64,000 nt of DNA. Source: Antedon mediterranea. Taxonomy: Eukaryota; Animalia; Echinodermata. This document shows, piece by piece, positions 1 through 62,065 of the stretch (the stretch's first letter is position 1; each line of letters opens with the position of its first letter). Position numbers and translations under genes: made by a program. Under the pieces are notes generated by a model. That model worked only from the letters and a program-made list of their open reading frames with translations. It had not been told where the DNA came from and did not search any database. Location: assembly GCF_964355755.1 (NCBI RefSeq), contig NC_092673.1, positions 24,301,648 to 24,365,647 on the forward strand. The letters are read 5' to 3'.

Positions 1-208
1 GTACATGCCCCAGCACATGCCCTAGTACATGCCCCAACACATGCCCTAGTACATGCCCTAATACATGCCCAACACATGCCCTAGTACATGCCCCAACACA
101 TGCCCCAACACATGCCCTAGTACATGCCCTAGTACATGCCCCAACACATGCCCCAGCACATGCCCCAACGCATGCCCCAGCACATGCCCCAACGCATGCC
201 CCAGCACA
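1..208. repeat. 12-bp minisatellite (ACATGCCC(C/T)A(G/A)(C/T))n, truncated by window start
   Basis: Repeating acatgccccagc / acatgccctagt / acatgccccaac units read directly. Confidence 0.95.
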
Positions 209-2483
209 GTACTGTATGTCCCATCTGTTTTTCCATATTAGTATAGGAGAAGTAGGGTATAGTGTATATGTACAGTATATACTTATTTAGGTCCGCCATA
301 TACATTACAAACTAGCCTTGTTTTAAATTTAGTTTAATTAAGTGACTATGATGTTTATTTAATAGGGACTCCCAAATACAGTAGTAAGTTTTAATATTAA
401 ATTTCAAATCTTAATTTTTTATATTAATACCCAATTCTAGCTGTTTCATGCTGTTATAAATATTTAAATGATTTTTTGGTGGATCTGACTATCGATTTAA
501 AAATTCAAAACATTCAACACTTGGAAAGGATAACTTGTTTACAGTCATGAATATTTCATTTATCAGCTATATAGTTTTCATTGTTAAAAAATAATAGATG
601 TAAAAATTGTCTTATTTAACTATAAATTTATAGCCTTCTCATTAATAATAAAATGATCGTCATAAACGTGCGTAGATGACCAGAGCTGACTCTAAATTTC
701 ACGCCTTCATATTGGAACAGAATCTTTATCACCAAAAAGCAAAAGGTTAATTAAGAAAAAGTAGAAAAAAGACCGATTATCTGAATTTGAACTCAAATGT
801 AAAATAATCTTGTGTAACCTACATACTGAAATAAAATTTTGAATTTTATAAATCTATTTTGTCTAGATTGTCTTTAACTTTAGTAAAAAATTATTTTAAT
901 TTGTATTGATTATTAATAGGATAGCTTGGAATAAACATTTCCTGTAAATCGCTGAATGAGGGGAAAATTAAACAGTTTTAATTAACAGTGTCCTGTTAAT
1001 CTTTAGGTTCTATTGTTCTCATGTTGTTCAGTATGTCATGATAGGCTATTGTTTTTTCTGTCAAAATGTATTTAACACAGTTTGTCATATTAAAGTGATA
1101 AATAGCACAAAGGCAATCTAACAACAGAACAGTTCGTAGATAGGAACTTTTAACAGTGCTTTGATCTTATGTCTTGCTGCAACAAATACCAACAGTACTG
1201 TCATACGGTGTCTGTTAAGGAGCATGGAATTGATCATGCCCCTTTGATCTCCGGAGCTCAGAATGTCTTGATATAACCAGGACTCCCTGATATAACCTAG
1301 TATAAATTTTCTATGTGATTTAATAGTAAATTTGAAGCATCATACATCATGTGAAATACTATGTTATGTCATCATTACATGATAATTAATCATGTTTAAT
1401 ATCGTATATTACAACATACCACATGTCACTGTCGACTCTCGAGTGAACGGTTGGCCTGCGAAGCGGTTCCTGTTTTTTGGTGAACCACGACAAGCTGTCC
1501 TCGATAGACCTCGTTCTCAATCCATTTTACGAGTTGCTTTCAATTCATGCGAGTATGCTACTTACAAGCTATCAAGCTAGGACACAAATATTTTTTGTCT
1601 TCACACAATCACATCAAGAGCAGCTCACGATAGAGGACACATGTGAACAACAAGCATAACAACCTATATTGTAACCTATACATTCTCAACTTTATTTCTA
1701 AAAGAGCTTATTTTCCATTCAAACATTACACCAATATTGAACAAGAATGAGGTACTGACTTGGAGAGTATAATGCCTGACTTAAAATTGAGTTATATTTA
1801 TGTAACATGAGCCCAAACAGAAAACTGCTCTTATATTAATCCATGTCGGATAAGGACATGCATATTAAATTAATTATTTTTTGGATTGATTTTTACTTTT
1901 ATGGTCATAATAGTCATTAGCACCAACAATATGGCATCTATGAGCTGGTCAATATGAAAAGCACTTAGCGGAGTAGAAAGTTCAAAATATGTTGCAAAAT
2001 AAATTTTATACACATTATATCTTACCTTTACCGTTTATTTTCATAGCAACAAATGGCTCCACTCTTGAAAGTACTTGACCGTTCACACTGGTCACAATGT
2101 TCCAGTAATAAGCTTATAAATGAAATTTTGATGATCAGTTTGTGTAAGATGTGTTTTACTTTATTTTTGCATAGTAAAGTGTTGACATTTGAGTTTTTAA
2201 ATGTTGAACCCAATGATGAATATGACATGATAATATATTTTTGTCTGCTGGGTGACCTTTTTTAAGACAAAGATCACAATTATCTCTTCAGTTTACTGCT
2301 TTCTAGTGTTTTTTTTTTAAATTTTGTTGTGCCATATGATTAATTTACTTGTCAGTAATTCAATCTTGATTACTATGGTACTAATGTTTCCACCTTGTTA
2401 TGTGTTTCTCTTCTGTGGATCAATAATTAAAGAAAAAGTGTGTAGGCTTTTGTTGTCATTCCTATTTATTTCCAGTATATTAA

Positions 2484-3984
2484 AGATGTACAGTATTGTC
2501 CCTTTGTCAAATTCCAAAAAAATAAAAATAAAAAGATTTCGAAAAAAAGTGGGTCATTTTGAAGTATCATATAGTTATTAACTTTCACCAAAAAATAGTC
2601 GGAAAACAAAATCATTTAACTGAAATACAGACGTGTTTTGGTTAAAAAAATAACTTTGACTTCCAGTCAAAGTTTTCGATCAATACATATCTCATAATGC
2701 AATGCGCATATTTGGCTGCTCTGTATGCATAATCATAAAACTTCCTCGCGATCTGTGTGAAAACACCTTCTCAACCGTGACAAGTTGTAAACAATCCTAA
2801 TTAGCATCATGCATGTATACTCATGGTTTGAAATCTTTGTTTACTTTGTTTACCAGACGAAATCTAATCAAATTAATTTAGCTATTAATTACGTAAAATT
2901 GTTGTTTTTGTCTAGTCTGGGTTCCAGACGGAGTTTTACGGTCTTAATATTAGTAAAAAGATAAATATTTTGGCACATATAGCGTTTCATACGTATACTA
3001 CTTGATTTTGGATACTCCGTCTGGGGAAACACGCACAAGTCACATGGTTTGACACCAAGAATTCTTGGTGCATACGATTATCCGGTTGACTAGTTTCAGC
3101 TGCATGCGATTGGCTACTCACTCGTACACCGTTTTAATATTCATATTTCAGAATTTCAAAGACTCAACAACTAAGATGATGCGCATGTTACGTTTAGAGA
3201 ATGTGTACTTGGGTATTTATGAAAGTTTCTGAAGGCTAGAAATTATTTTATATGCCTAGTAGTCTGGTAAACATTTGATGGGATTTTTCCCAAAAACATG
3301 AAAACTCGTCTTGATATGATATGCTAGCTTCTCCGCAAATCAAACATTGAATGGATCATTTATTACGCGGAGTTAATTTTGATTTAATTCACACCCAGAC
3401 CCTGTCCTGTTCTGTGTGGTGGTGTAGCCCTGTTGTTGTGTGCCGCCGATGGTGGTATGTAGGCCTACTTTATTGGCGTTTTATTTGGCAGGTCATACGT
3501 GCGAATTGAGTAGGACCTACGAAAGAGGCCTAGGCCAAGGACTAAACAATTAATAAACAAAACAACTTGGCATTACGATTTTATATTTCAACAGTCTCGA
3601 TCGTACATTCAGCACTGTACGTACTCGATCATTTTCATTTTGAAACAAAATGATCATTGGTTGATTCAAAATCCATATTTACATACCGCCCGCCCCATAT
3701 AGCCAAATACGGTATGATAAACTACGTCATTCTTATCGGATGTTTGCGGTCTGCAAATCGATTTCTATACGTGTTTCACAAGTCTGTATTTTCAGACAAA
3801 AATCGCGGTCGAAATAAAAACAAATAAATAAAAAAAAAAGATAATACAGACTTGGGGCAAGTCTAGTTTTTGTCTTGAATTTTCGACTTTAAAGTGAATA
3901 ACTTTAATATTACTTTGATATAGCCAATAACAATTTAGTATATTTAGACCTTCATTTTTTTGTGTTTCAAGGGACAATACATCT
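2484..3984. mobile_element. Kolobok-like non-autonomous DNA transposon (host of AcademH-like insertion)
   Basis: TTAA|AGATGTA(cagta)TTGTCCC ... GGGACAATACATCT|TTAA. TTAA target plus purine-purine start is the Kolobok rule; same TIR as the 40535-40862 copy. Confidence 0.7.
2913..3865 (+). mobile_element. AcademH-like non-autonomous DNA transposon, copy 1
   Basis: TAG...CTA termini, exact 9-bp TSD GTTTTTGTC (2904-2912 / 3866-3874), subterminal palindromes; near-identical inverted copy at 32235-33159. Confidence 0.8.
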
Positions 3985-4899: not shown

Positions 4900-5625
4900 G
4901 GTGTTCTTAATATTGAGTGTACTCTTAATATTTAGTGTACTATATTGAGTGTACTCTTAATATTGAGTGTACTCCTAATATTGAGTGTACTCTTAATATT
5001 GAGTGTACTCTTAATACGGGTGTCCTATTTATACTGAGTGTCCTCTTTATACTGAGTGTCCTCTTTATACTGAGTGTTCTCTTAATATCGAATATACTCT
5101 TAATATTGAATGTACTCTTAATATTGAATGTACCCTTAATATTGAGTGTACCCTTAATATTGAGTGTACTCTTAATATCAAGATACTCTTAATATTGAGT
5201 GTACTCTTAATATTGAGTGTACTCTTAATATTGAATGTACTCTTAATATTGAGTGTACTCTTAATATTGAGTGTACTCTTAATATTGAGTGTACTCTTAA
5301 TAATGGGTGTACTCTTAATATGGGTGTCCTTTTTATACTGAGTGTTCTCTTTATACTGAGTGTCCTCTTAATATCAAGTATACTCTTTATATTGAGTGTA
5401 CCCTTTATATTGAGTGTACCCTTAACATTGAGTGTACCTTTTATATTGAGTTTACTCTTAATATGGGTTTCCTCTTTATACTCAGTGTCCTCTTTATACT
5501 GAGTGTCCTCTTAATATTGAGTGTCCTTAATATTTAATGTCCTCCTTTTGAGTGTCTTCTTTTTGAGTGTCTTATTAAATAGCGGTGAACTCTTAATAGG
5601 GGTGTCCCAATATAAGCGTTCAACT
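4900..5625. repeat. 18-bp minisatellite (TTAATATTGAGTGTACTC)n and variants, probably expanded inside a MITE
   Basis: Dozens of ttaatattgagtgtactc / tttatactgagtgtcctc units; the ORFs at 4935 and 5320 are translations of this repeat. Confidence 0.9.
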
Positions 5626-9399: not shown

Positions 9400-9566
9400 A
9401 GTTCTGTCTATACACTATCAAACTTTCTGTGACAAAGAAATGTGATGTGCCCAAATATGGTAGTGATATGCTTAAATATGGTAGTGATAGGCTTAAATAG
9501 GGTAGTGATATGACATCATCACATCACTTTTTTTGTCAAAGTACTTTGATAGTGTAGACACTAGCT
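9400..9566. mobile_element. PIF/Harbinger-like MITE (family AGCTCTGTCTACACTATCAAACT..., internal CCAAATATGGTAGTGATATG repeats)
   Basis: TIR ...TGTCTACACTATCAAA / TTTGATAGTGTAGACA...; TAA/TTA flanks. Further copies near 14230-14373, 40888-41007, 43068-43188, 44424-44551, 51165-51316, 52942-53094, 55968-56085, 58215-58367, 60775-60915. Confidence 0.75.
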
Positions 9567-13590: not shown

Positions 13591-14428
13591 ATGTGGATGT
13601 ATTTATTTTTAAATTATATATTTATATCTAAAACATATATTAATATATCATATATTCATATCTAAATTATTGGTTTGGATATTAAACCCATATAATTAAT
13701 TTTTGTGAATGTTTTTGAGGAGAATAACAGGTTTATGACATTATATTTCAATAAATACCTATTTTTCACTCCTACATGTAATATTTTTGTGTATAATTAT
13801 CCTCAAATTCAATAACCTACCTTTTATCACTCTTGAATTTAACCTTTTTAACTATTGACAACAAATTCACTCCTACATACAATACAATAAACCGTTTTTA
13901 TTTTTTCAATCCTACATTTAATATTTATTACAAACTTTGTTTTGTCCCCTGCATATGTCAGAGTTCATTTATTTTAGGCCTGTGAACAAATTAAATAAAA
14001 ATACATACATTAATTACCTCAGCAGTTTTCTTTAAATATTGAAGTAAAATCCTGTAAATACAAATATAGGGTCCAATTCATATGCCTGGTCATATAGTAT
14101 GAATTTTAAAGAATTATAAAGAGCAGAACGACAAATGTTTGATTGTGTGGAAACCATTTTTGCAATTTTTTCATTTGTAAGAAAAAATTCTTCATAATTT
14201 TTGGAATATATCAAAATTTAGTAAACTTAAGCTATATCTACACTACACATTTTACGGGAGAAAAAAAATGTGCACATGGACATGATGTCATATCACTACC
14301 ATATTTGGGCATTTCAATACCATATTTAGGCACATATTTGTGGTCAAACTAGTTTATTAGTGTAGACAGAGCTTTAGTAATTAATCAATATTTGCGTCAT
14401 TCTAAAGAGAAATATCAGTTAATTTACT

Positions 14429-15787: not shown

Positions 15788-16842
15788 CAATCAATCAATC
15801 AATCAATCAATCGTTCGATTTATATAGCGCCATTCCAACATTCATGGCTCATGGCGCTGTAGAAAAAATCAGAAAAGGTGAGTTTTGAGTAGTGACTTAG
15901 GTCGTGTTCGTACGGTGGTTAAAATAAGCGCTTAATTTCACCCATGCCTCGGGTTATAAATTGAGCGTTGTTCGTACTTGAAATATTTAACCGCTTAAAT
16001 GCTTAATCGACGAATCACAAACCGGAAATTACGTTTTAAGGTCAGTTGTCTTTACAACCTACGACCCCATTTTCGCACGCTAGTTTCGTGTTGTATATTT
16101 TTTACTCGCGATCTTTCTTTACAATAACAATTACTTGCTACCTTTTACACTGCTTATCCTTGCGACAAACCTTATGCCTCTTAACGCCGATAATCCTGCC
16201 GAAATATGCCTTCTCCTGACGACCATTATTTTACTCATTGACGAAGAATTTGAGCCCAATGTTACACGACGGAAACACCCCCGACCAGCGGCTCCCCGAC
16301 CACCAGCTAGGCCTACTAAGCGGTCTACACCAACAAGGACAGCACCAGCTGACGATCGCTCTCGAAGCGTGTATGGAAGAGCTTCGTAGGAGAAATGACG
16401 GGCCTAGGCAGCGAACGTTTGTCAAAATTTGACACATTGCCTCTATCGGAGATTTATTATCCTCGAAGGCCGAGTATAATTGGAGTATCGCTGAAATAAC
16501 CTGCAAATTTGGTGAACATTTTACCTCGAATTTTTTGTAGCCTGAGGCAAAAGTTAATTGGATCACGCGAACGGAAATCGGGAATAAGCTGGTATTTTCA
16601 ACCCCTACGAACAGGCCCTTAAAGTGACTCAATAACGATGTGTGTTTAATGTTCAAGGGTAGGTGGTTCCAGAGCCTAGGTCCAGCAACACTGAAAGTCC
16701 GATCTCCCCAACCATGTTTGCTCTTTGGAATGTCCAGTAGCATCTGATGACTAGATCTTAGTTCTCACTTTCCCTTCTTGACTGTCAACAATTCTGAGAG
16801 ATATTTTGGAGGGCAACTATTTAGGCATCGGAACACCAGCAC
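15788..16842 (-). mobile_element. 5'-truncated L2/CR1-group LINE (ORF2 C-terminus, 3' hairpin, (TTGA)n tail), interrupted by a MITE
   Basis: Minus strand reads VFRCLNSCPPKYLSELL...LDIPKSKHGWGDRTFSVAGPRLWNHLPLNIKHTSLLSHFK, resuming after the MITE as SLLKTHLF*; GCGCCAT..ATGGCGC stem, then TATAAAT and the (TTGA)n tail. Confidence 0.85.
15900..16618. mobile_element. PIF/Harbinger-like non-autonomous element with TTA TSD
   Basis: TTA|GGTCGTGTTCGTAC ... TACGAACAGGCCC|TTA; removing it restores the LINE reading frame. Confidence 0.8.
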
Positions 16843-18076
16843 GTCTCTGTGTTGCATCCTAGTGTGAACCAAGCTTTAAACAAATATACAGAGAGGGAAT
16901 TTTACTTTTATGTATTTATTTATTTTTTAGTTTTAATGCTTGTAATATTTATTGAATTATCTTATAATAATCTAATAATTATACCATATAATTATTATTA
17001 TTCTTTGTTTATAGAAAAATAATAATACTGCTACGACATACTGTACAGTCTGTAATATTTTGTCTTGCTATTAAAACTTCAAAACTAGTGCTAGTTGATA
17101 TTTTTTACAAAGTGATGTCAGTAAGTTTGTAAATTCAACGTTCTGTAGAATAAATTAATTTGTCACTGAATATTAGTTAACAAACTGGGCTAAACTGGAA
17201 GTGTTACCCTCTCTAAAAAAAATAGATTTTGTACAACTAGTACAACTTGATGAAAAAAAAAGTGCATAGTCATATACAGTACATGGTTTCTTAGTCTGGA
17301 CGGAATGAATTTAAACTCGTCACCCACCTCAGCCTCACATATAATCTATATATAAATTTACGTAAGGGCAAAATTCGGTAAATCGCGCCTTACTTCTAGA
17401 ATTTTCACTCGATGGTATGTAAAGTTGGTTCGTACTTTCGGTACTGATTTTAACCGCCTGATGTAACCCTGTTTGCTAATTAAATTGAGTTAAATAATTA
17501 GTTATTGACGATTAAAACGAATTTAGGTTAAACGATTTGCCCCAAATAGGGGTGTTTTCCGATCGTGGTATACACTGTCTAATGGATGTCCATCTTAAAA
17601 AAATACCCGCCAAAAAAATGCGAGGAGGCTTCGCATTTTTCTATCTCCTCCTATCCTCGATAATTGTTTTTAATAGCTGAAAACCGGTTGAACAGCTAGA
17701 GTACACCATCATAATGTTGAAGACAGGCCGATTTTCTTTAAAAAATACTATTTTGATAGATTTAATATACGATTATACAAATGTATTGATTTGCGATGAA
17801 TGGAACATCCCAATCTCTCAGTCTGCCAGAGTTTGGTTTAACACAAGTACTGTAGGTAAATTTATGAGCCCTTGAACACATACGGTAGGTAAATATATGG
17901 GCCCTTTGAGAATAAACTTGCAATACTTTGACAATACTGTAAATACCTATTAACTATTTTTCATTTGAATCGAACATTTCTTACTGTGAATGTTCGTACT
18001 GTTAGATGTAATATAAAAATATATACAAATAAACTTTATTACTGAGACTGTGGATAGGCTCTACTGTTAGATATAC

Positions 18077-18245
18077 TGTAATATGGTGGCGCTAGACCCC
18101 AATTTGCATACACACCTGAGTGGTGGCGTGCTAGGTATTACTGTATATAAAGGACGTGTTGTTTTGCCATTAAACACTTGTACTTATCGTAACTTACATG
18201 GTTGTCTCTCTGTCTCATTTCTTTCGTTTAACACCAGACTTTACA
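18077..18245 (+). repeat. 5' LTR
   Basis: TGTAA...TTACA; octamer ATTTGCAT 18102-18109, TATATAAA 18144-18151, ATTAAA 18169-18174; identical to the 3' LTR by eye. Confidence 0.97.
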
Positions 18246-18277
18246 TGGTGTCAGAAGTGGGATTCGAACCCACGCCT
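18246..18277 (+). promoter_or_regulatory. Primer-binding site complementary to tRNA-Leu 3' end (extended, >=32 nt)
   Basis: TGGTGTCAGAAGTGGGATTCGAACCCACGCCT is the reverse complement of AGGCGTGGGTTCGAATCCCACTTCTGACA-CCA, the T-arm, acceptor stem and CCA of metazoan tRNA-Leu (CAA/CAG type). Confidence 0.9.
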
Positions 18278-18278
18278 A

Positions 18279-18737
18279 CAATCGACAAATACGAAAGTTT
18301 TCTGAAGGTTCTAATTGCTCAAGAAATTTCTTGAAAATAGTAGCTGGCTCCTTTCGCTGCTCTTCCGTTAATGTCCATGTATTATATCTGCGAAGACCTT
18401 CTTCGCCTACGGCAAGAAGTATCAAAGGGACTTGTCGATCTATTGTATATATCTCGTGTCAACAATGACTGAACACGTTCCACGTTTTGATTGGAGCTCG
18501 CCAAATGCGGCAGATTCGTTTAAGTTATTTCAACAACGTGTTGAATTATATTTCCAAGTCAAAGGTACAGACGCAGATCGACAAGTCCCTTTGATACTTC
18601 TTGCCGTAGGCGAAGAAGGTCTTCGCAGATATAATACATGGACATTAACGGAAGAGCAGCGAAAGGAGCCAGCTACTATTTTCAAGAAATTTCTTGAGCA
18701 ATTAGAACCTTCAGAAAACTTTCGTATTTGTCGATTG
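18279..18737. repeat. Perfect 163-bp inverted repeat: leader 18279-18441 is the reverse complement of gag 18575-18737
   Basis: Base-by-base comparison from CAATCGACAAATACG to GGGACTTGTCGATCT showed no mismatch; the 133-nt spacer contains the ATG at 18465. Confidence 0.95.
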
Positions 18738-21700
18738 AAGCTAAGGAAATACACACAAAAACAAGGGGAGTCGTTGGATGAGTTTATTAACCGATGCAAA
18801 TTGCTTGCTCTGAAATGTGATTTTAACGATAGTGAATTGAATGAGCGATTGATAGAGCAGATAATTGCTAGTACTCCCATACCGGAATTACAGAAAGATC
18901 TAATGAACAAACCAAAAGGATTTAATGTTCAAGACGCGCTCAAACTTGGTCGGAGTTACGAAGCCTCCGCCGCCCATATAAGTGAACTACAATCTATGCA
19001 TGGGCAAGGACAAATCGCTAACGTTTCATCACTATTCTACCAACAACAAAAATGTAGGAATTGTGGCACAGATCACCGTTTAGACCGTCAGGACTGTCCT
19101 GCTCGTGATGACGTATGTAGAGCATGTGGTAAGAATGGCCATTGGGCTAAGTTTTGTCTAACCAGTAAATTTAAAGATCATCGTAGTCGACCAAAATATA
19201 GAACTAATTATGCTCAAAACCACCAACGTTACCGACGGGGTCAATCCCCAAGACAACGGGGTAGATACCAACGCAACCGCCCTTATGGATATGATAGAAA
19301 TGTACATTATTTGGAACAGTCTGAACAGACGCATACTGATGATAACGATACTGATTGCATGAATACGCAATTTGAATCATTTTCTTTCTCCTCTATACAA
19401 GTATCCAGTTTCTGTTTCCAAGACGGACCGAAACCCCGAGACGAAGCTTTCGCAAATCTCAAAGTAAAACTTGACGGCAGACCAGGCACGCATAACTTAC
19501 AATTAAAAGTTGATACTGGCGCACAAGCAAACACGCTCCCACTTAGAACATACCGTCACATGTTCCCGTACAATTTGAATACAAAAGGCTACCCACAACC
19601 AAATGCATTGGAAGCCACGCAGAACGTTTTGACGGCTTACAACGATACAAAAATAAAATGTTTTGGTACAACAAGAATACATTGCTGTTACGAGAACTCT
19701 ACATGGTTGAGTACCACATTTTTTGTTGTTGATGTTCCAGGCCCAGCTGTAATCGGTCTTCCAACATGCGAACAACTCCGCATTGTAACACTGCACTGTA
19801 ATATCAACAACACACCAACCAAATACAATCCCGTAGTTAATAACATCGAAGAACTTATTAAACTTTACCCTGACCAGTTTGATCGTATTGGTGAATTCAA
19901 AACGATACACAAGCTTGTTGTTGATCCTAACGTTCCCAGTCGAATGAATGCACCGAGACGTACACCTATTGCTTTAAAGGAAATGATAAAGGCTGAACTT
20001 TCAAAGATGGAGCAGTTAAATATCATAAAGCCAATTGAAGAGCCAACAGAGTGGGTAAGCTCACTAACGTATGTGACAAAAACAGATGGTAGCATTCGTG
20101 TTTGTTTGGACCCTAAATATTTAAACATGGCACTTGTCCGTCCGCAACACAGAATTCCGACACTTGAAGAAATAAATCATAGATTCGCCAACGCAAAGTT
20201 TTTTTCCAAACTCGATGCCAAAGCTGGTTATTGGTCAGTAAAGTTAGATCACGACAGCCAGAAACTTACCACTTTCCAAACACCCTTTGGACGCTATTGC
20301 TTCCAGCGTTTGCCTTTCGGATTGTCTGTGAGCCAGGATATATTTCAGCTTGAGATGGATCGAATCATTGGAAAATGCAAAGGTGTTTGTGGAATTGCAG
20401 ACGACATAGCAGTATTTGGTTCCACTGAACAAGAACATGATGCTAACCTGATTAACTTCATGAAAGTTGCAGAACAAACCGGCCTCGTTTTAAACTCGAC
20501 CAAATGTCACATCAAACAAGATAATATAACATTCTTTGGTAACGTTTATACCAATAAGGGAATTAAACCAGACCCCAAGAAAGTTCAAGACTTAAGAGCT
20601 ATGCCTGAGCCTACAAACAAAACAGAACTTCAACAATTTCTTGGAACTATGACTTACCTCTCGTGTTTCATTAAAGACTTCAGCACGAAAACAACAGTGT
20701 TGAGAGATCTACTTAAGAAGGACGTTGAGTTCCTTTGGGAAACACATCATGCAAAAGCATTTGAAGCTTTAAAACGCGAAGTTTCCGAAACAACGTTACT
20801 ACAATATTATGATGTAAACAAACCTGTCATCCTTCAATGCGACGCAAGCATACGTGGATTAGGGGCCACACTGTTACAATATGATTGTAACGATCAACTC
20901 AAACCAATTACTTATGCAAGTAAAAGCCTTACAGACACTGAACAACGTTATGCATGTATCGAGCGAGAACTATTATCCATTGTATTTGGAGTACAACGAT
21001 TTCACACCTTTTTATTTGGACGAAGTTTCCACGTTATTACGGATCATAAGCCATTGATAATGATAACAAATAAACCACTAACATCTGCACCTCCTAGATT
21101 ACAACGGATGCTGATCAAATTACAAGGATATAATTTTACTATTGAACATTTACCAGGAGTCAAAAATCAACTTGCCGATGGCTTATCACGTTTGCCTAAT
21201 ATGAATAATAATCAAATCATTGATTTGGATGTGCGTGTTGATCTTGTTCGTTTCTCCACAGAAAAAGTAACTCAACTTCAACAACAAACCACCGAAGACC
21301 CAATCCTAAACCAACTTAAAGGCATCATCACCAATGGTTGGCCGGAAAACATCAAACAGTTACCGACAGATATGCGACCATATTGGAGTTACAGAGACGA
21401 GATGTCAACCGACAACGGCCTTGTGCTTAAAGCTCAACGCATCGTAATACCCTCAACTATGCAACGTGATATACTGCTACAATTACATACCGCCCACCTT
21501 GGTCAAGAAAAAACAAAACTACTTGCTAAGGACACTGTATTTTGGCCGAACATCAATAAAGACATTGACCAATTAGTTCAATCATGCTCTATATGTCAAC
21601 AGCACCAACCATCACAAATGTCCGAGCCTCTCCTGCAACATGACATACCAACTAAACCATGGAGCGTACTTGGAGCTGATTTGTTTACGTTCGACGATCA

Positions 21701-22553
21701 TCAATGGCTAATTATATCGGACTATTACTCGAAGTATCCGATCATTCGCAAACTACCTGAATCTAGTCCAAGCAGAGTCGTCATCGATGTTTTCAAGCAA
21801 GTATTCGGCGAACATGGCGTTCCATCTAAAGTTGTAAGCGATAATGGCCCGCATTTTTCCAGTTTCGTGTTCAAAGAATTTGCTAAAGCCTGGAGTTTCG
21901 ATCATACAACTTCTTCACCCAGACGACCCCAAGGTAATGGGTACATCGAACGTCAAATACGGACGGTAAAATCAATATTAAAGAAAGCTAAACAATCGTC
22001 AACCGATTATGAACTTGCACTTCTTCATTGGAGATCTACACCAGTTAGTCAATCTCTTCCCAGTCCAGCTCAATTATTAATGGGAAGAAAATTGAAATGC
22101 AGTCTACCAACAAAGATAAGCCTAACCAACACCAATGACTCTGACAAAATATACGACGAATTGAAGAAAAGGCAAGAAGTTCAAAAGCATTATTATGACT
22201 TGCATGCTCGTACAAATGAACTAACCCCATTAATTCCAGGTCAACAGGTCAGAATCCAGAACCAGAGTTCTAAATGCTGGGATCCTGCCACTATACATCG
22301 GATAGCTGACGAACCAAGATCATTCTTCGTACAGAGTCCTAATGGTAAAATCACCAGACGAAATCGACAACACATCCGAGAAATACCAGTCAGTACGCCT
22401 GTACTACAAGAAACAACCGTACCTAACAAACCTCTCAACCCAGACCCACAGGATAAACCAGATGTGAGCAGAACTGAGATCGAACCAGAACAACCTATAA
22501 TTCGTACAAGGTCCGGACGGGAAGTGAAAATCCCTGATCGATATAAACCATGA
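18465..22553 (+). CDS. Gag-Pol polyprotein (Gag with two Cys/His knuckles, aspartic protease, RT, RNase H, integrase)
   Basis: CRNCGTDH...C and CRACGKNGHWAKFC knuckles; KVDTGA protease; LDAKAGYW / RLPFGL / IADD RT; CDAS / TDHKPL RNase H; H-H-C-C and ADLF / SDNG / ERQ integrase. The PR-RT-RH-IN order is Gypsy. First ATG at 18465 (the ORF track starts at TTG 18432). Confidence 0.97.
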   Translation: MTEHVPRFDWSSPNAADSFKLFQQRVELYFQVKGTDADRQVPLILLAVGEEGLRRYNTWTLTEEQRKEPATIFKKFLEQLEPSENFRICRLKLRKYTQKQGESLDEFINRCKLLALKCDFNDSELNERLIEQIIASTPIPELQKDLMNKPKGFNVQDALKLGRSYEASAAHISELQSMHGQGQIANVSSLFYQQQKCRNCGTDHRLDRQDCPARDDVCRACGKNGHWAKFCLTSKFKDHRSRPKYRTNYAQNHQRYRRGQSPRQRGRYQRNRPYGYDRNVHYLEQSEQTHTDDNDTDCMNTQFESFSFSSIQVSSFCFQDGPKPRDEAFANLKVKLDGRPGTHNLQLKVDTGAQANTLPLRTYRHMFPYNLNTKGYPQPNALEATQNVLTAYNDTKIKCFGTTRIHCCYENSTWLSTTFFVVDVPGPAVIGLPTCEQLRIVTLHCNINNTPTKYNPVVNNIEELIKLYPDQFDRIGEFKTIHKLVVDPNVPSRMNAPRRTPIALKEMIKAELSKMEQLNIIKPIEEPTEWVSSLTYVTKTDGSIRVCLDPKYLNMALVRPQHRIPTLEEINHRFANAKFFSKLDAKAGYWSVKLDHDSQKLTTFQTPFGRYCFQRLPFGLSVSQDIFQLEMDRIIGKCKGVCGIADDIAVFGSTEQEHDANLINFMKVAEQTGLVLNSTKCHIKQDNITFFGNVYTNKGIKPDPKKVQDLRAMPEPTNKTELQQFLGTMTYLSCFIKDFSTKTTVLRDLLKKDVEFLWETHHAKAFEALKREVSETTLLQYYDVNKPVILQCDASIRGLGATLLQYDCNDQLKPITYASKSLTDTEQRYACIERELLSIVFGVQRFHTFLFGRSFHVITDHKPLIMITNKPLTSAPPRLQRMLIKLQGYNFTIEHLPGVKNQLADGLSRLPNMNNNQIIDLDVRVDLVRFSTEKVTQLQQQTTEDPILNQLKGIITNGWPENIKQLPTDMRPYWSYRDEMSTDNGLVLKAQRIVIPSTMQRDILLQLHTAHLGQEKTKLLAKDTVFWPNINKDIDQLVQSCSICQQHQPSQMSEPLLQHDIPTKPWSVLGADLFTFDDHQWLIISDYYSKYPIIRKLPESSPSRVVIDVFKQVFGEHGVPSKVVSDNGPHFSSFVFKEFAKAWSFDHTTSSPRRPQGNGYIERQIRTVKSILKKAKQSSTDYELALLHWRSTPVSQSLPSPAQLLMGRKLKCSLPTKISLTNTNDSDKIYDELKKRQEVQKHYYDLHARTNELTPLIPGQQVRIQNQSSKCWDPATIHRIADEPRSFFVQSPNGKITRRNRQHIREIPVSTPVLQETTVPNKPLNPDPQDKPDVSRTEIEPEQPIIRTRSGREVKIPDRYKP

Positions 22554-22741
22554 TACGAACTACGAATACCTCAAAATTGTAACGATATTGCGAACATTTA
22601 TAACTTAATTTTTTTTTTTTTTTGACTGTATGATATTTTGCTAGTATGTTGTTTCAAGTTTGCTGTGAAGGGGATGTTGTTATATATTCTAAATGTTTAT
22701 ATTCTAAAAAATCTAAAAAAAAACTTTCTATTTTTGTCGAT

Positions 22742-22749
22742 AAGGGGGA
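22742..22749 (+). promoter_or_regulatory. Polypurine tract
   Basis: AAGGGGGA immediately before the 3' LTR. Confidence 0.85.
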
Positions 22750-22918
22750 TGTAATATGGTGGCGCTAGACCCCAATTTGCATACACACCTGAGTGGTGGC
22801 GTGCTAGGTATTACTGTATATAAAGGACGTGTTGTTTTGCCATTAAACACTTGTACTTATCGTAACTTACATGGTTGTCTCTCTGTCTCATTTCTTTCGT
22901 TTAACACCAGACTTTACA
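22750..22918 (+). repeat. 3' LTR
   Basis: Identical to 18077-18245; followed by ATAC. Confidence 0.97.
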
Positions 22919-25350
22919 ATACAAATAAACTTTATACTGACAGTTCCTTCTCAACGTTTGTATTAATTAATAATTACCAAAAATATAAACGTCGTAGTGG
23001 TGTATCGTGACATGTACTTTAATATTTCAATCGATTATGACAGTGACAGTTTTAACAAAGTATTAAATCGCAAATGTTTTAGGCCTACTGTATTTAGAGG
23101 TATATTATTTATAGGCCTATAAAACATGAACAAAATATTTCGTTACTCAGTGGATAAAGAATATATTTAAAAATTGTTCCTCTTTGTACCTATCCGCTTT
23201 CCCATCCCTCAACCCTAATGTTACATAGCGAGGAGGCTTCGCATTTTCCTATCTCCTCCTACGATAATTGTTTTTAATAGCTGAAAACCGGTTGAACAGC
23301 TAGAGTACACCATCATAATGTTGAAGACAGGCCGATTTTCTTTAAAAAAATACTATTTTGATAGATTGCTAGAGTACACCATCATAATGTTGAAGACAGG
23401 CCGATTTTCTTTAAAAAATACTATTTTGATAGATTTAATATACGATTATACAAATGTATTGATTTGCGATGAATGGAACATCCCAATCTCTCAGTCTGCC
23501 AGAGTTTGGTTTAACACAAGTACTGTAGGTAAATTTATGAGCCCTTGGTTTAACACATACGGTAGGTAAATATATGGGCCCTTTGAGAATAAACTTGCAA
23601 TAGGTTCGGAAAATGTTAAAAACCAATTTCTATTATTTGAATCGGTAAACAGTTTCCATTTATTATACATTGATAATGAAACATGAAATATTCCTATTTA
23701 TGTCCCTCGAGGTTCATTACAATTTATATTTAGTAGTCCCACGGACTTCATCTTAGCCACTCCCCCGAGTGCTAAGGCCAAATTTATGATACCCTACTTT
23801 CTATGTAAGTTTAGTTACAGTTAGTTCTTGACGATAATACAACGAATTTAGGTTACACCCTTCGGCCGCGAAAACGTTTCTGTACAAATATGATACCGAT
23901 TGGCTTTATTTCATTCAACAGCGACCATAATCTCGCCAATTACAGGATAGATAAACTATTTTATTATTGATGTGCTTATAAATTAAGACTCATGTAAACA
24001 GCTTGATTACATCATTTTACAGACAAACGAAACTTTTTTAAACCTACTGTTTCAATAACTGAGTATAATACTGTATACGTTTTCATAAGTAAGTGCATAT
24101 ACATTTTCGTGTTTTCATTGACGAGATTGTAATAGTAACTTCAGTAACTATTACAGTACTTATTTATTATACGACACAAGACAATTGTATCTGACAGGTA
24201 CGTACATTATTCTAAAAAATAAGTCTAGATAGATCCCTTAGGCGTCATAAATCACAGGCCAACAAATCAGTACTCATGACAGAAATTCGACCCAGTTTGG
24301 TTCACACAAATGTTTACAGGAATTTCAACACCACAACCGATGATTTGCCCTAAATATTTAGGTAGACTACAGTTTAATTTTTCACTGAATAGGAGCTTGC
24401 ATTTCCGATTTTCATTTCGCAGAATGTCTAGGTCTATTTATTTAGTTTGGTTCTTATAATATATAAATACAATCAACTTTATTACTGCGGTTCCATCACC
24501 ACCACCACGTGTCGCCCAATTCCCGTACATACATTTCCATTTCTCCCTAATTTCTTTAATCCACATAAATTAATTGTCCTTTATGGAATCCAGTATTGGT
24601 TTTGTTGTCTCTATTTCTGAATACCCCAATTAGGGGGACACTTCCGTTTTTGTTTAGTGTCCCAAAAAAGTCCCCGTCCGTGGATTCTACTGTATTCGAG
24701 AACCATCTGTGAGCACCCCTAGATGGTACGCGAGCGAAGCGAGCGTGCCATCTAGTAAGACACAATTACCACTACACAAATTGACTTTATATTGTGTATT
24801 GTATGTTCATTTATGTTGTACCAAATGCATATTACACTCAATATATAGTATATAATATGTTATGCAAATACTATGGTAGCGAAATTAAGCCTACTCCATT
24901 ATATTAAATTTGCTACTCTTGGTAATATCATGTTTCATATAATTCAACATGGCTCAAAGAATTTTTTTTGTATTGATAACAATGCTGAAATTATTAAATA
25001 TATTATGGAATATAAATATAGCCCTAAAAAGTAAATTAAAAGATTTGCATTTTATTGGTAACCAAAAATAAAAATCAGAGGAAAAGCAAAGAGGTTTTAA
25101 GTGTTGTTAGTAGTACTTCAATTGCTATGCAGCTGCCTTCATTATGACTGGCTGCTAAGGGAAGAAACAATACAGTCATAGCAGAGCGTGTTCTTATTAG
25201 CAGAAGCAATAAACGAGCACAGTGAAAGTTGGCCTTGATGTAGTACATGGTGGTACAGTATTTCTATTCATTTCATTAAAAGCAAGATAGACACTAAAGG
25301 ATATTAGAACCATGCTTGTTAGTTGATTTATCTATTTTTGTTGGGGAAAA

Positions 25351-29489: not shown

Positions 29490-29557
29490 AATAATAATAA
29501 TAATAATAATAATAAGATTTTTAAAGCGCACATACCACTCCAGAGTGCTCAAGGCGC
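29490..29557 (-). mobile_element. L2-type 3' tail with (TTA)n
   Basis: Minus strand GCGCCTTGAGCAC...GTGCGCTTTAAAAAATC(TTA)n; similar tail on the + strand at ~49963-50027. Confidence 0.6.
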
Positions 29558-30125
29558 AAACTTGCCATAAACTTGTAAGTCTTGTTGCAAACTTGCCATA
29601 AACTTGTAAGTTTGTTGCAAACTTGCCATTAACTTGTAAGTCTTGTTGCAAACTTGCCATTAACCTGTAAGTCTTGTTGCAAACTTGCCATAAACTTGTA
29701 AGTGTCAATGCAAACTTGCCATAAACTTGTAAGTCTTGTTGCAAACTTGCCATAAACTTGTAAGTGTCAATGCAAACTTGCCATAAACTTGTAAGTCTTG
29801 TTGCAAACTTGCCATAAACTTGTAAGTCTTGTTGCAAACTTGCCATTAACGTGTAAGTCTTGTTGCAAACTTGCCATTAACTTATAAGTCTCAATGCAAA
29901 CTTGCCATTAACTTGTAAGTCTCAATGCAAACTTGCCATAAACTTGTAAGTCTCAATGCAAACTTGCCATTAACTTGTAAGTCTTGATGCAAATTTTCCA
30001 TAAACTTGTAAGCTCTCAATGCAAACTTGCTTGAAACTTTAAGTCTTGATGCAAACTTGCCATAAACTTGTAAGTCTTGTTGCCAACTTGCTTGAAACTT
30101 TTAGTCTTGCAAAATTGCCATAAAC
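29557..30125. repeat. 31-bp minisatellite (AAACTTGCCATAAACTTGTAAGTCTTGTTGC)n
   Basis: Tandem units read directly; degenerate units extend left to ~29380. ORFs 29469 and 30039 are translations of the repeat. Confidence 0.95.
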
Positions 30126-30453
30126 GTTGAAATGAAACTCTGCAATTATCTCAATGGAATGTAGAGATGTAAGATTGTCAATTACCCACCTATTATTCAT
30201 TGTTTGTGTTTTCAAATAAATTGCAAATTGTGTTTGTGTGTAAATATTAAGGAAGTACATCCATTTTATTATGAATCGATGCTGTTGTATTTTTGATAAT
30301 TAAATAGAACTCTTAATTAAAAATTGAATTTGACCTTGGTAACTAAGTTCATCACATCTCTTGAAAAAAAATTATTAAATTACTTATGAAATTAAAGTTG
30401 ATTATTGCCAACAGTAGAAAATATTACAATAAAAAATGTCTTAGTTCCATATT

Positions 30454-31449: not shown

Positions 31450-32234
31450 ATATTTTTTTTAATTCATTAGTGGAATATTGGTTATTGTGTTTGAGTAGCA
31501 ATGGAATTCTGAACTCTAATCTAATAAAAAACCACAAATCATATTAAAAAGCACACCCACATAAACAGGAAAAATTAAAACACTTAGTCCAATCACATTT
31601 AACGTATGCACTGTATTTTGCTGTCAAGGATATTGTTTCAACTTTGAAAGGATTGAGTAAATGTTTTCCTGCGTCTAACATGTTGCCAGCATTTAATACC
31701 AATTATTTTGGCAGATCGTTGCTAGCAGTAATTTCCATTCTCATCTTTATAGCATTTATTCATGGACATGGACACTGTATACTAATATATTTTATCGTCT
31801 ATTTGTGTTGAATGTGGTTTTTACTATCATTTTGTCTATTGAATTTTATTGATTTTGACAGAATTGTATTTTTAAGAATTTCTTTTTTATCGATTTTTTT
31901 CCGCTAATGCATTGTAATATGTTGATACATCGCTGTTTTAAAAATGGATATAACAGACAACTATGAAATGTATGATTAATGGTGTTTATTGGTTGCCATG
32001 ATATTTTACTTGTCGTCATTCCTCATTGTAATTCCTTATTCCAAAGTTTACTGTAGTTTTGCATGCTTATTTAACGATAGGTCTTACTATACTGAATCAT
32101 ATTTTTGCACATGTACGTATTCCTGAATGGTTTAACGTAAAGAATTATATACAGACTATTACTATAGGGAAGGAGTACATTTTTAAACTAGCAAGGGTTT
32201 GAATCACAACTTTGTAATTTTTCTTAATAATCAC

Positions 32235-33159
32235 TAGACTTGCCCCAAGTCTGTATTATCTTTTTTTTAAATTTATTTGTTTTTATTTCGACCGCGATTT
32301 TTGTCTGAAAATACAGACTTGTGAAACACGTATAGAAATCGATTTGCAGACCGCAAACATCCGATAAGAATGACGTAGGTTATGATACCGTATTTGGCTA
32401 TATGGGGCGGGCGGTATGTAAATATGGATTTCGAATCAACCAATGATCATTTTGTTTCAAAATGAAAAAGATCGAGTACGTACAGTGCTGAATGTACGAT
32501 CGAGACTGTTGAAATATAAAATCGTAATGCCAAGTTGTTTTGTTTATTAATTGTTTAGTCCTTGGCCTAGGCCTCTTTCGTAGGTCCTACTCAACTCGCA
32601 CGTATGACCTGCCAAATAAAACGCCAATAAAGTAGGCCTACATACCACCGGCACACGACAGGGCTACACCACCACACAGGACAGGGTCTGGGTGGGAATT
32701 AAATCAAAATTATCTCTGCGTAATAAATGATCCATTCAATGTTTGATTTGCGAAGAAGCTAGCCTATCATATCAAGACGAGTTTTCATGTTCTTGGGAAA
32801 AATCCCATCAAATGTTTACCAGACTACTAGGCATATAAAATAATTTCTAGCCTTCAGAAACGTTCATAAATGTACCCAAGTACACGTTGTCTAAACGTAA
32901 CATAGCGCTGAGTCTTTGAAATTCTGAAATATGAATATTAAAACGGTGTACGAGTGAGTAGCCAATCGCATGCAGCTGAAACTAGTCAACCGGATAATCG
33001 TATGCACCAAGAATTCTTGGTGTCAAACCACGTGACTTGTGCGTGTTTCCCCAGACGGAGTATCCAAAATCAAGTAGTATACGTATGAAACGCCATATGT
33101 GCCAAAATATTTATCTTTTTACTAATATTAAGACAAAACTCCGTCTGGAACCCAGACTA
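32235..33159 (-). mobile_element. AcademH-like non-autonomous DNA transposon, copy 2
   Basis: Reverse complement of 2913-3865; exact 9-bp TSD AATAATCAC (32226-32234 / 33160-33168). Confidence 0.8.
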
Positions 33160-37370: not shown

Positions 37371-38826
37371 CTAGATGGTACGCTCGCTTCGCTCGCGTAC
37401 CATCTAGGTCGTGCCCACAGATGGTTCTCGAATACATAGTAATTTCAGCGTTTAAAAAACTGGCGACTTCAAATGCACATGCAGGACAATAATACATGTT
37501 GTTTACAGGAACGAATAAATAGACACGGTGATTTATGTACTCAACTAAAATTAGCACCCCGGGAATTACTTCCGAAAAAGAAGTTTGTCACAAAATAAGA
37601 AACAAACTGAATTTGTGTTTTGTATGTAACATTTGGGTTGAGGGATGGGGAAGAGGATGGATGCAAAGACGAACAATTTTTAAATATATTCTTTATCGAT
37701 TTAGTAACGAAATATGAATTGTTTTCATGTTTTACAAATAATATACCAGTAAACACAGTAAAACATTGCGATTTAATACTTTGTTGAAACTGTCACCGTC
37801 ATAGTCGATTGAAATAGTACAGTACATGTAACGATACATCACTCTAATACGACGTTTATATTTTTTTGAAGTTACATGATTACAAACGTTCAGAAGGAAC
37901 TGTCAGTAATATATTAAACACCTCTAATCGCGGCAAATCGTAAATTCGCTTTAATCGTCAATAAATAATTATCTAACTCAACTTAATTAGTAGGCCTAAT
38001 GGTCAAGTGTTTCATAGAGCCAATTATGCTACCCAACTTGTATTGAAAATTAAGTTGTTTCCTAACCACCAAAGTTGTTCTGCGTTTAGGGCATGTACTG
38101 ATCATTCGTACTGTAGGCCTGTCCTCTACTGACTTTACAACGCTACTCATGCCAGTGAGGGGAGGGTGGTGATGTTGGTGGTGGTTTAGCTGCAATAATA
38201 AAGTTGATTGTACATAATAGACGGCGACTGGAAAGGCTAGCTCATTATGCGTTAAAAAAAAAGGATTCCACAGATTGGAAAAAAATGTATCGAATTTCTG
38301 TTATGACTGTACAGTACTTGTCTTTACGACGCCTGAGGGAATAGACACTTGTGGAACAGAGATTGGAATGTTCCATTTATCGCAGATCAAAACATTTGTA
38401 TAAACGTATATTAAATCTATCAAAATAGTATTTTTTAAAGAAAATCGGCCTGTCTTCAACATTATGATGCTGTACTCGAGCTGTTCAACCGGTTTTCAGC
38501 TATTAAAAACAATTATCGTAGGAGGAGATAGGAAAATGCGAAGCATCCTTGCATTATTGTCTGCGGGTATTTTTCAAGTTAGACATCCATTAGACAGTGT
38601 ATACCACGACCACGAAACACCCTATTTGGGGCAAATCGTTGAACCTAAATTCGTTTTAATTGTCAATAACTAATTATCTAACTCAATTTAATTAGTAAAC
38701 ATGGTTACATCAGATGGTTAAAATCAGTACCGAAAGTACGAACCAACTTTATATACCATCGAGTAAAAATTCTAGAAATAAACTGCGATTTATCGAATTT
38801 TGCCCTTACGTAAATTTATATATAGA
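37371..38826 (-). mobile_element. Non-autonomous Helitron, copy 2
   Basis: Minus strand A|TCTATATATAAATTTACG ... CTAGATGGTACGCGAGCGAAGCGAGCGTACCATCTAG|T. Confidence 0.85.
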
Positions 38827-39299
38827 TACCAAAGTGGACATTTTCATGTTATGTTCATAGAATTACCAAACTTAACCTTCAGTTGTTGAAATTAAATAAC
38901 AGTAAATTAAATTATGTTTTCATTTGATAGCCAACTCGCTGCCTCATAGTTGAAGAAGCTTTACAGTTCGCAATTAAATTCTTCATTTCGCAGAAGCGTG
39001 CATTACGCATTTGGTTTATGGTTTTAATTTAGTTTTTTCGTAAATGTCGGTGTGTTTGACCAAACACTGCTAAGTCGTTTATTAAGTAATATAATAAGAC
39101 TAACCCCTGTTAGCTTCAAAATGAAAATCATAGATATACATAAATTTAATTTAATATTTAGACAAAATGGTAGAAGTGTGACGGGAAGTATATTAAGTAA
39201 CTAACCCCTGTTGACTTAAAAATGAGCATCATAATTGCATGAACTATAGTCGAGAACTACTGTCTTCCACCATACCACATTGATGGTGTAAAATCTCCC

Positions 39300-60660: not shown

Positions 60661-62065
60661 TCTTGTTATATCTTCAAATGTATTTGTTGTTGAATGTGTA
60701 GAATAACATTTTGTTGTGTATATTAAAATTCAAATTTTACTTTAAGTACATAAATAATTCTCACTAAAGCCTAAGGTTCTGTCTACAGTATCAAACTGTA
60801 TGTGACAAAAAAATGTGATGTGCCCATATATGGACACGATGATGTCATATTACTACCATATTTAAGCATATCACTACCATATTTGGACATGTCACAGCTC
60901 AAAACATGGCCACTACCACATTATAACAAGCACAAATTAAATTTCAAATTTCACTTTAATCGACAATTAATCACGCACAACCATTTTATGTAAAGTTAAA
61001 ATGTTAACTGAGAAAAAGGTGTGTTCCTTTACATTAATAACATTATTGACTAATACAGACCATATCATCAAATTTTGATGAAGCATGCAATAAATCCATC
61101 GTTAAATTAACGGTGATCTACGGCTCATTAGATTATAATCTCGTAAATGTCACATGGAACATTACATTTATTATTTACCATGTTAATAGAATATTTCTGA
61201 ACTACAAAATGAAAATGTTCTACAACAAATATTCAATGAAAATATTGAAAATGTTAACCTATAAGGCTTGGTTCCCACTAGCGACGTAATGTAAGAAAAT
61301 GGCCTTCCAATAATTGTGTTTTACCCCACCCGCGAGCTATCGAACATGCAATGTTTGCAGCACTGTTGCATCTTTCCCACTTGTTCCCACTTGTGATTGT
61401 GCAATACAGCACTTTACGTCAATATTTTGTTGCATTCTAGTGGGACCAAGGTTTAGTAAAGTCAACAATGTTTTTCGAACCTCTATTAAGGGGACGCCTT
61501 TGGAATCCCACAATGTAGCCCCTGGGTAGGAGTGTCCCAAAGGAGGGATTCCACTGTAGTTGCCTAAGCTGGGTAAAACTTGCAGAGTCAAAAAAGCGAT
61601 GTACAGAAAGTGATATTTCCTATTTCATATATTCTATTGTATAAATCCAGTGCAATTATGACTTTATACTTGCACAAGTATCAACAAATTGTTGTGATGT
61701 TGCACTTTGATCATGTTAACTTATTCTTACGAGATATTTGCATATTCAACTTGTGTTTTCATCTTGCATAACCAATAACTATCTGTCTGCTATATAGGCC
61801 CTGCTCAAAAATTGGAAGCGCAAAAAACGGTTTGGTGAAAAGTTCAAGTTGATTTTTAATCGATCAATGCGAGATCGGGCTGTAAGCTTTATCATTGCTA
61901 GTCGTTATATTTGTTGCTTGCTAGATTCAGAAGGTTTTGAAATATTTGTGCAAATTGTCCTCCAATAGCAACCCAATTTTTATTTTTGCATTTGTATAAA
62001 AAAATTATATCATATCAAATCAATATTACTAGTTTATAGCAATTTATATCTTCATTTTTAATTTA

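What the first reader, a model, noticed from the sequence alone, without database searches (positions are those of the whole stretch)
18246..18280. PBS copies at least 32 nt of tRNA-Leu, reading through the m1A58 stop
Seen: complementarity runs from CCA through the acceptor stem and the whole T-arm into the variable arm (TGGTGTCAGAAGTGGGATTCGAACCCACGCCT). Known: plus-strand synthesis normally stops at m1A58, limiting a PBS to 18 nt. From memory, some invertebrate tRNA-Leu(CAG) read ..CTGTAGGCGTGGG.., which would extend the match to 35 nt (..GCCTACA) and overlap the antisense-gag segment by CA; this needs checking. The extension also places a full B-box (GGTTCGAATCC, minus strand 18260-18270) in the element. 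Inference: RT read-through of an under-modified primer, or a family using extended primer pairing or TFIIIC binding.
Basis: partly seen in the sequence, partly recalled or inferred. Interest (0 to 1): 0.7.

Follow-up and report, generated by a model that had tools for sequence, protein, structure and literature searches.

The report
Over-copied primer tRNA, scrambled retrotransposon leader
One young jumping-gene copy carries an over-long DNA copy of a tRNA end joined to a backwards piece of its own gag gene, likely a frozen one-off copying error in which reverse transcriptase ran past its normal stop, possibly halted at a second tRNA methyl mark, and would leave a hairpin predicted to disable this copy.

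Summary
The extension is real, but it is likely half of a single copying accident rather than a family trait. The site is the PBS of a very young, intact Ty3/gypsy element (identical 169-nt LTRs). Nucleotides 19-29 fit a tRNA T-arm at 11 of 11 positions (chance about 3.5e-7). The 32-35-nt length and the Leu identity could not be tested, because no host genome is held. The extension runs straight into a perfect 163-nt antisense copy of the element's own gag. In 3 of 4 sequencing runs laid, the family's usual form has a different leader at that junction. In 97 related loci, no PBS-like site passes 18 nt. Best reading: an over-long plus-strand strong-stop DNA was rescued by two short-homology template switches that replaced the leader. 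A 35-nt copy would end one base before the variable-loop m3C reported for fly, fish and human tRNA-Leu(CAG); the loop geometry is recalled. The B-box is a by-product. Sibling PBS length remains unseen. This scan noted over-copied primers before in two other genomes (unchecked notes).

The parts
18073..18076 (+). left target-site duplication, 4 nt
   Evidence: repeated at 22919-22922
18077..18245 (+). 5' LTR, 169 nt, TG...CA ends
   Evidence: identical to the 3' LTR
18246..18263 (+). canonical 18-nt PBS (tRNA positions 76-59)
   Evidence: exact 18-nt match then divergence at 7 distinct sites in other elements
18264..18274 (+). extension copying tRNA positions 58-48 (T-loop, 5' strand of T-stem, position 48)
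   Evidence: 11 of 11 structural positions, chance about 3.5e-7; Rfam T-arm hit
18275..18280 (+). likely copy of the 3' side of a long variable arm; 18276-18280 also matches antisense gag at 4 of 5 positions (junction microhomology)
   Evidence: tRNA origin inferred, host tRNA not seen
18260..18270 (-). B-box consensus, a by-product of the copied T-loop
   Evidence: no strict A-box on this strand in 18240-18460
18279..18441 (-). antisense copy of gag 18575-18737, 163 of 163 nt identical; stands where the family's usual leader is
18371..18472 (+). out-of-frame upstream ORF created by the antisense segment (ATGs at 18371 and 18377; 33 and 31 codons), overlapping the gag start
18441..18464 (+). 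remnant of the usual leader, 24 nt; position 18441 is shared with the antisense arm
   Evidence: contigs of X1, X5 and X6 align from 18441 and carry other letters before it
18465..22553 (+). single uninterrupted gag-pol ORF, 1362 aa: RT, RNase H, integrase by Pfam; two Cys/His knuckles and a protease-like motif by eye
18575..18737 (+). gag segment that templated the antisense arm; 3' arm of the predicted hairpin
22741..22749 (+). polypurine tract
22750..22918 (+). 3' LTR
22919..22922 (+). right target-site duplication

Best explanation
This copy of a young Ty3/gypsy retrotransposon carries at least 29, likely 33-35, nucleotides copied from a tRNA 3' end, joined to a 163-nt backwards piece of its own gag, likely made in one faulty round of reverse transcription. 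[quoted passage not shown] Any transcript would fold a 163-bp stem around the gag start codon, so the copy is predicted to be poorly translated.
For: T-arm fit 11 of 11, chance about 3.5e-7. The copy begins at a CCA end, as a mature tRNA does (eukaryotic tRNA genes lack CCA; general knowledge). The extension abuts the rearrangement with 4 of 5 nt microhomology. LTRs 169 of 169 and arms 163 of 163 identical, so insertion and rearrangement are equally young. In 3 of 4 runs laid (3 studies, 2 coded organisms) a different leader joins at 18441; in X1 one unbroken 527-nt contig at depth 228.7 carries that form, with no listed difference from the window. 0 of 17 distinct PBS-like sites in 97 loci pass 18 nt; 0 of 24 loci tested have a leader-gag inverted repeat. 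Read-through past A58 to later modifications is known for HIV-1 and normally blocks completion (PMC13191261 section 10; PMC8599865 passages). [quoted passage not shown]
Against: The PBS of true siblings was not seen: only the 30 letters next to 18441 of their leader were displayed, so an over-long PBS inherited by the family cannot be excluded. Another genome's unchecked note (e1-10321918) reports such a family of about 500 copies. No listed contig in the 4 runs bridges either of the window's own junctions (contigs cannot show absence). The base opposite A58 is correct, although fly and human Leu-CAG show about 95% misincorporation there with TGIRT, so nothing marks the template as modified RNA. 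The m3C stop needs a CAG primer with a 4-bp stem and 3-nt loop (recalled); Leu-CAA shows no variable-loop site in 22 of 22 table rows. The last 2 nt are shared with gag, so the end point is 33-35. The relatives surveyed share only about 30-65% protein identity. The TSD is 4 nt against 5 nt in 3 related elements.
Confidence: 0.68

Rival explanations
1. The over-long PBS is inherited: an earlier read-through was fixed in the family or a subfamily, and the antisense gag insertion is a second, later event in this copy.
For: An extension placed 3' of an intact PBS would be copied in later rounds (inference). HIV-type primer over-extension sequences exist (PMC13191261 section 10). An unchecked scan note reports a family of about 500 copies with an over-long PBS in another genome. 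Sibling PBS not seen.
Against: Needs two rare events whose ends coincide to within 2 nt. 0 of 17 distinct related PBS-like sites are extended. The reported HIV over-extension reaches positions 54-55 only.
Confidence: 0.17
2. Chromosomal repair after integration: a break in the leader was mended by polymerase template switching, first onto a tRNA gene or tRNA through the PBS homology, then onto nearby gag in inverted orientation.
For: The correct base opposite A58 fits an unmodified DNA template. Junction overlaps of 1-5 nt and an inverted insert from 130-300 nt away resemble templated-insertion repair (general knowledge).
Against: Needs a distant tRNA template to be found, whereas RT holds the primer covalently on its template. 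No divergence in LTRs or arms leaves little time. Over-copied primers are reported at PBSs in other genomes (unchecked).
Confidence: 0.08
3. The extension is kept for function, as an extended primer-pairing site or a TFIIIC-binding B-box.
For: A full B-box is present at 18260-18270.
Against: Any copied T-loop gives a B-box; the 9-mer consensus has 28 hits in the window; no strict A-box. No conservation in related elements. The copy is too young to show selection.
Confidence: 0.03
4. Assembly or library artefact (fold-back chimera).
For: Perfect inverted repeat; the window's junctions are not bridged by any listed contig in 4 runs.
Against: A fold-back cannot create 11 or more tRNA-specific bases found nowhere else in the window. 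Both LTRs, the TSD and the ORF are clean.
Confidence: 0.04

Closest known systems
Over-extended plus-strand strong-stop DNA of HIV-1 and HTLV-1 (PMC13191261 section 10; PMC8599865 and PMC11251516 passages)
   Same: RT copies the primer beyond A58 and stops at a later modification; the product normally fails plus-strand transfer.
   Different: Reported later stops are at 55, 54 and 37 of tRNA-Lys3, seen in vitro or in culture. Here the copy ends in a long variable arm, and it was integrated into an animal genome after a rescue rearrangement.
Retroviral 'deletions with insertions' from RT template switching (PMC3187697 passages; Pathak and Temin 1990 and Parthasarathi 1995 seen as reference titles only; Pulsinelli and Temin 1991 recalled)
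   Same: Element sequence is replaced by a templated insert through switches at little homology.
   Different: Those are single-cycle vector mutants. This is a natural invertebrate LTR retrotransposon insertion whose insert joins extra tRNA to antisense gag.
Primer over-extension sequence of lentiviruses and spumaviruses (as described in PMC13191261 section 10)
   Same: tRNA-complementary bases directly 3' of the PBS.
   Different: That is a short conserved family trait reaching about position 55. This one is 11-17 nt and is absent from all related PBS-like sites examined.
Maize Mu killer (recalled; named in scan notes)
   Same: An inverted duplication of the 5' part of a transposon that would give a long hairpin RNA.
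   Different: No expression, small RNA or silencing is shown here; the element class differs.
Ty3/gypsy elements of marine invertebrates (K02A2.6-like proteins; Mag-like by recall)
   Same: Domain order RT-RNase H-integrase, one ORF, short LTRs, the same PBS type; 52% identity to a sea-urchin protein, up to 58% over the full length to unnamed ones.
   Different: Their PBS-like sites match for 9-18 nt and their leaders hold no antisense gag.

Membership tests
Ty3/gypsy LTR retrotransposon | direct LTRs with TG...CA ends, PBS, PPT, TSD | tested here: met
Ty3/gypsy LTR retrotransposon | pol order RT - RNase H - integrase | tested here: met
   Pfam hits at aa 569-723, 789-920, 1026-1186 of P0001
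Mag clade | RT phylogeny groups with Mag/SURL reference elements | not tested
   no named reference was fetched and no tree was built; the single ORF and two knuckles fit by recall only
Over-extended plus-strand strong-stop product | tRNA-complementary sequence continuous from CCA past position 58 | tested here: met
   11 of 11 positions, 58-48
Over-extended plus-strand strong-stop product | matches a host tRNA and ends at a blocking modification | not testable with these tools
   no host genome; m3C site known from other animals only
Over-extended plus-strand strong-stop product | misincorporation opposite m1A58 | tested here: not met
   18264 is the correct complement; not required if the primer was unmethylated
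Deletion with insertion by RT template switching | normal sequence replaced by a templated insert with short junction homology | tested here: met
   the RT origin itself is inferred
Family-wide primer over-extension sequence | extension conserved in siblings and relatives | tested here: inconclusive
   0 of 17 distinct sites in distant relatives; true siblings' PBS not seen
Pol III type 2 promoter | A-box a short distance upstream of the B-box | tested here: not met
   no strict A-box; relaxed matches only at 18409 and 18442, about 140-170 nt away (consensus patterns recalled)
Mu killer-type silencer | inverted duplication able to form long dsRNA | tested here: met
   predicted stem over the whole arm, -329 kcal/mol, z -43
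Mu killer-type silencer | transcribed, yields small RNAs, silences siblings in trans | not testable with these tools
   needs stranded RNA and small-RNA data from a carrier

The most novel reading that the evidence does not exclude
One RT accident both recorded a second strong stop at the variable-loop m3C of an echinoderm tRNA-Leu(CAG), a modification readable from genomic DNA alone, and created an LTR-driven gag hairpin that silences its own active family in trans: a natural 'killer' copy born during retrotransposition.
Probability: 0.1. Interest if true: 0.72.

Novelty: new variant of a known kind. Interest (0 to 1): 0.4.

Why it matters
It shows how an over-copied primer, normally a dead end, can still be integrated: by sacrificing the leader through short-homology switches. 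If the 35-nt end point holds (about even odds), genome assemblies record RT-blocking tRNA modifications beyond m1A58 in animals with no tRNA chemistry data, and a census of such ends becomes a cheap test. The same accident builds a long self-complementary gag hairpin under an intact LTR, a direct route to family-specific dsRNA. As it stands it is one copy with no function shown.

Tried and rejected
No whole genome is held, so neither the tRNA gene set nor a copy census could be run. Sequencing runs: 14 holders listed, no RNA holder on record; 4 of 14 were laid, on 18281-18574 only; the lack of bridging contigs is not taken as absence. Single-protein queries in viral contigs found no relatives; the alignment found 80 loci kept of 201 in metagenomes, 1 in viral contigs and 13 in genome contigs, none near-identical. 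The census filter dropped L001 and L002; one search includes them. 70 of the 97 loci gave no counted site or share a locus with another (27 sites after CA at the 9-nt cut-off), because of other primers, shorter matches or missing 5' ends. ARAGORN: no tRNA in the window or in 60 loci. Searches for an invertebrate tRNA-Leu(CAG) sequence failed; the zebrafish supplement and one mim-tRNAseq file were too large to read and may hold the relevant positions. Classic papers on aberrant transfers are not held. Searches listed no report of an over-long PBS in a genomic retrotransposon copy; the library lacks most subscription and older papers, so this is weak. Scan look-ups by sequence, by place and for m3C stops were empty. 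Rejected: Pol III promoter (no A-box), chance match, tRNA gene (no full tRNA, CCA present).

Full report
Setting. The finding is the primer-binding site of an intact LTR retrotransposon. The LTRs (18077-18245, 22750-22918) are 169 nt and identical, with TG...CA ends, a 4-nt TSD and a polypurine tract. One uninterrupted ORF runs from the ATG at 18465 to 22553, with RT, RNase H and integrase in Ty3/gypsy order. No env-sized frame lies in the element. Homologues include K02A2.6-like proteins of sea urchins and molluscs. An unchecked scan note calls the host a feather star. No whole genome is held.

The observation. Without a host tRNA I tested the extension by structure. If nt 1-18 are tRNA positions 76-59, then nt 19-29 must give the T-loop invariants, five bases that pair with 61-65, and a pyrimidine at 48. 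The window meets 11 of 11. No other of 1,381 TGG sites in the window exceeds 6 in a row, none of 17,879 sites in 97 loci exceeds 8, and the chance from base composition is 3.5e-7. Rfam finds the same T-arm, below its gathering score. So at least 29 nt are tRNA-derived. Two further positions (18275, 18278) do not match the adjoining antisense gag, which fits at least 33 nt; 18279-18280 fit either side.

What the extension is joined to. Positions 18279-18441 are the exact reverse complement of gag 18575-18737 (163 of 163). Only 24 nt (18441-18464) precede the ATG. At the left junction, 18276-18280 matches antisense gag at 4 of 5 positions; at the right junction one base is shared. I laid contigs of 4 of the 14 listed runs on 18281-18574. 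In X1, X5 and X6 (three studies, two coded organisms) other letters join at 18441: 176, 92 and 30 loose letters, which agree over the 30 shown. X9 starts inside gag. In X1, which may be the source sample, one 527-nt contig at depth 228.7 runs unbroken from that leader through gag. So the usual form has a different leader and no antisense gag at that junction. No listed contig bridges the window's own junctions, which contigs cannot turn into absence. The siblings' PBS was not displayed.

Relatives. An alignment of 43 proteins fetched 94 loci; 3 more came from a PBS pattern scan and so match the first 18 nt by selection. Among these 97 loci, 27 sites follow a CA and match the PBS for 9 nt or more. 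They reduce to 17 distinct sequences with exact runs of 9-18 nt; 7 stop at exactly 18 (3 of them from the pattern scan) and none is longer. T-arm fits are 0-2. None of 24 loci tested has an inverted repeat within 1.2 kb of the PBS. These are distant relatives, so they show the clade's norm, not the family's.

Mechanism. Shown: the extended tRNA copy, the antisense gag, the replaced leader, the short junction overlaps, and no divergence in 169 + 163 paired sites. From papers: plus-strand synthesis normally ends after 18 nt; minor products reach positions 55, 54 and 37; over-long products normally fail transfer (PMC13191261, section 10 and passages; PMC8599865, passages; PMC11251516, passages). 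Template switching yields deletions with insertions (PMC3187697, passages), and RTs can prime on 2-nt overlaps in vitro (PMC3035444, abstract). Inferred: the over-long end was rescued by two switches. Either it primed on gag-sense RNA and then moved to the minus strand at 18441, or the minus strand folded back, copied 163 nt of itself and met the over-long end. Both routes give this sequence, and I cannot separate them.

[quoted passage not shown] Fly Leu-CAG shows 94% misincorporation at a variable-region C (PMC8062790, supplement rows), while Leu-CAA has no such row in 22 of 22. With a 4-bp variable stem and 3-nt loop (recalled), the middle loop base falls at 18281, the first position that is clearly gag. 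A 35-nt copy would then end one base before the m3C. I give this about even odds: the host tRNA is unseen, and the last two bases are ambiguous. The base opposite A58 is correct, which fits an unmethylated primer or faithful read-through, and also a DNA template.

Consequences, all predicted. The transcript would fold a stem over the whole arm (-329 kcal/mol, z -43 for 18281-18760) with the gag ATG in the 133-nt loop, and two out-of-frame ATGs open a frame that overlaps the gag start. The copy is therefore likely poorly translated and could be a dsRNA source like Mu killer (recalled; also named in scan notes). Nothing here shows expression. The B-box is the copied T-loop; its consensus occurs 28 times in the window and no strict A-box accompanies it.

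Novelty. Both ingredients are known from retroviruses. Six searches listed no paper on over-long PBSs in genomic retrotransposon copies, but the older literature was not readable. Two unchecked scan notes describe over-copied primers in other genomes, and one a fold-back at a Copia front end. What seems particular here is the end point in the variable arm and the rescue through antisense gag. PMC12789967 and PMC3587641 (passages) gave background only.

Verdict. A real feature, likely a single frozen RT error; a new variant of a known kind; interest 0.4. The count of PBS lengths in true siblings and the host tRNA-Leu sequence would settle it.

Noticed in passing
window 18073-18076 and 22919-22922; L049, L050, L087: The TSD here is 4 nt. 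Three related full-length elements have 5-nt TSDs, and two others (L052, L081) show none.
   Followed up: partly
window 17344-17925 and 22919-23602; also 37623-38827 and 45593-46222: The element sits inside a patchwork host repeat with further, inverted copies in the window and local duplications on both sides; class not identified.
   Followed up: partly
L085-L097: 13 contigs in prokaryote MAGs encode relatives of this retrotransposon protein, most likely host-animal contamination.
   Followed up: no
L006, L020, L032, L035, L036, L038, L054: Several relatives show a second recurring PBS-like sequence after the apparent LTR end, suggesting primer switching within the clade; many PBS matches are only 9-13 nt.
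   Followed up: partly
window 3-225, 4906-5607, 29550-30138: Tandem arrays with 12-, 18- and 31-nt units.
   Followed up: no
window 2941-3867 and 32233-33134: A roughly 900-nt repeat in two inverted copies at 96-99% identity, probably a young dispersed element.
   Followed up: no
window 9417-9524, 14282-14335, 43083-43157, 51160-51303, 52957-53082, 55971-56045, 58209-58334, 60769-60913: A short dispersed repeat family with 21-nt internal subrepeats in both orientations, MITE- or Helitron-like by appearance.
   Followed up: no
window 16231-16764 (-) and 19503-19973 (-): Two stop-to-stop frames of 177 and 156 codons; not examined.
   Followed up: no
runs X1-X10: The family is held at high word share in coded organisms A (0.91-0.95) and B (0.55-0.56) and at lower share in C (0.29), so it is conserved or recently shared across labels.
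   Followed up: partly
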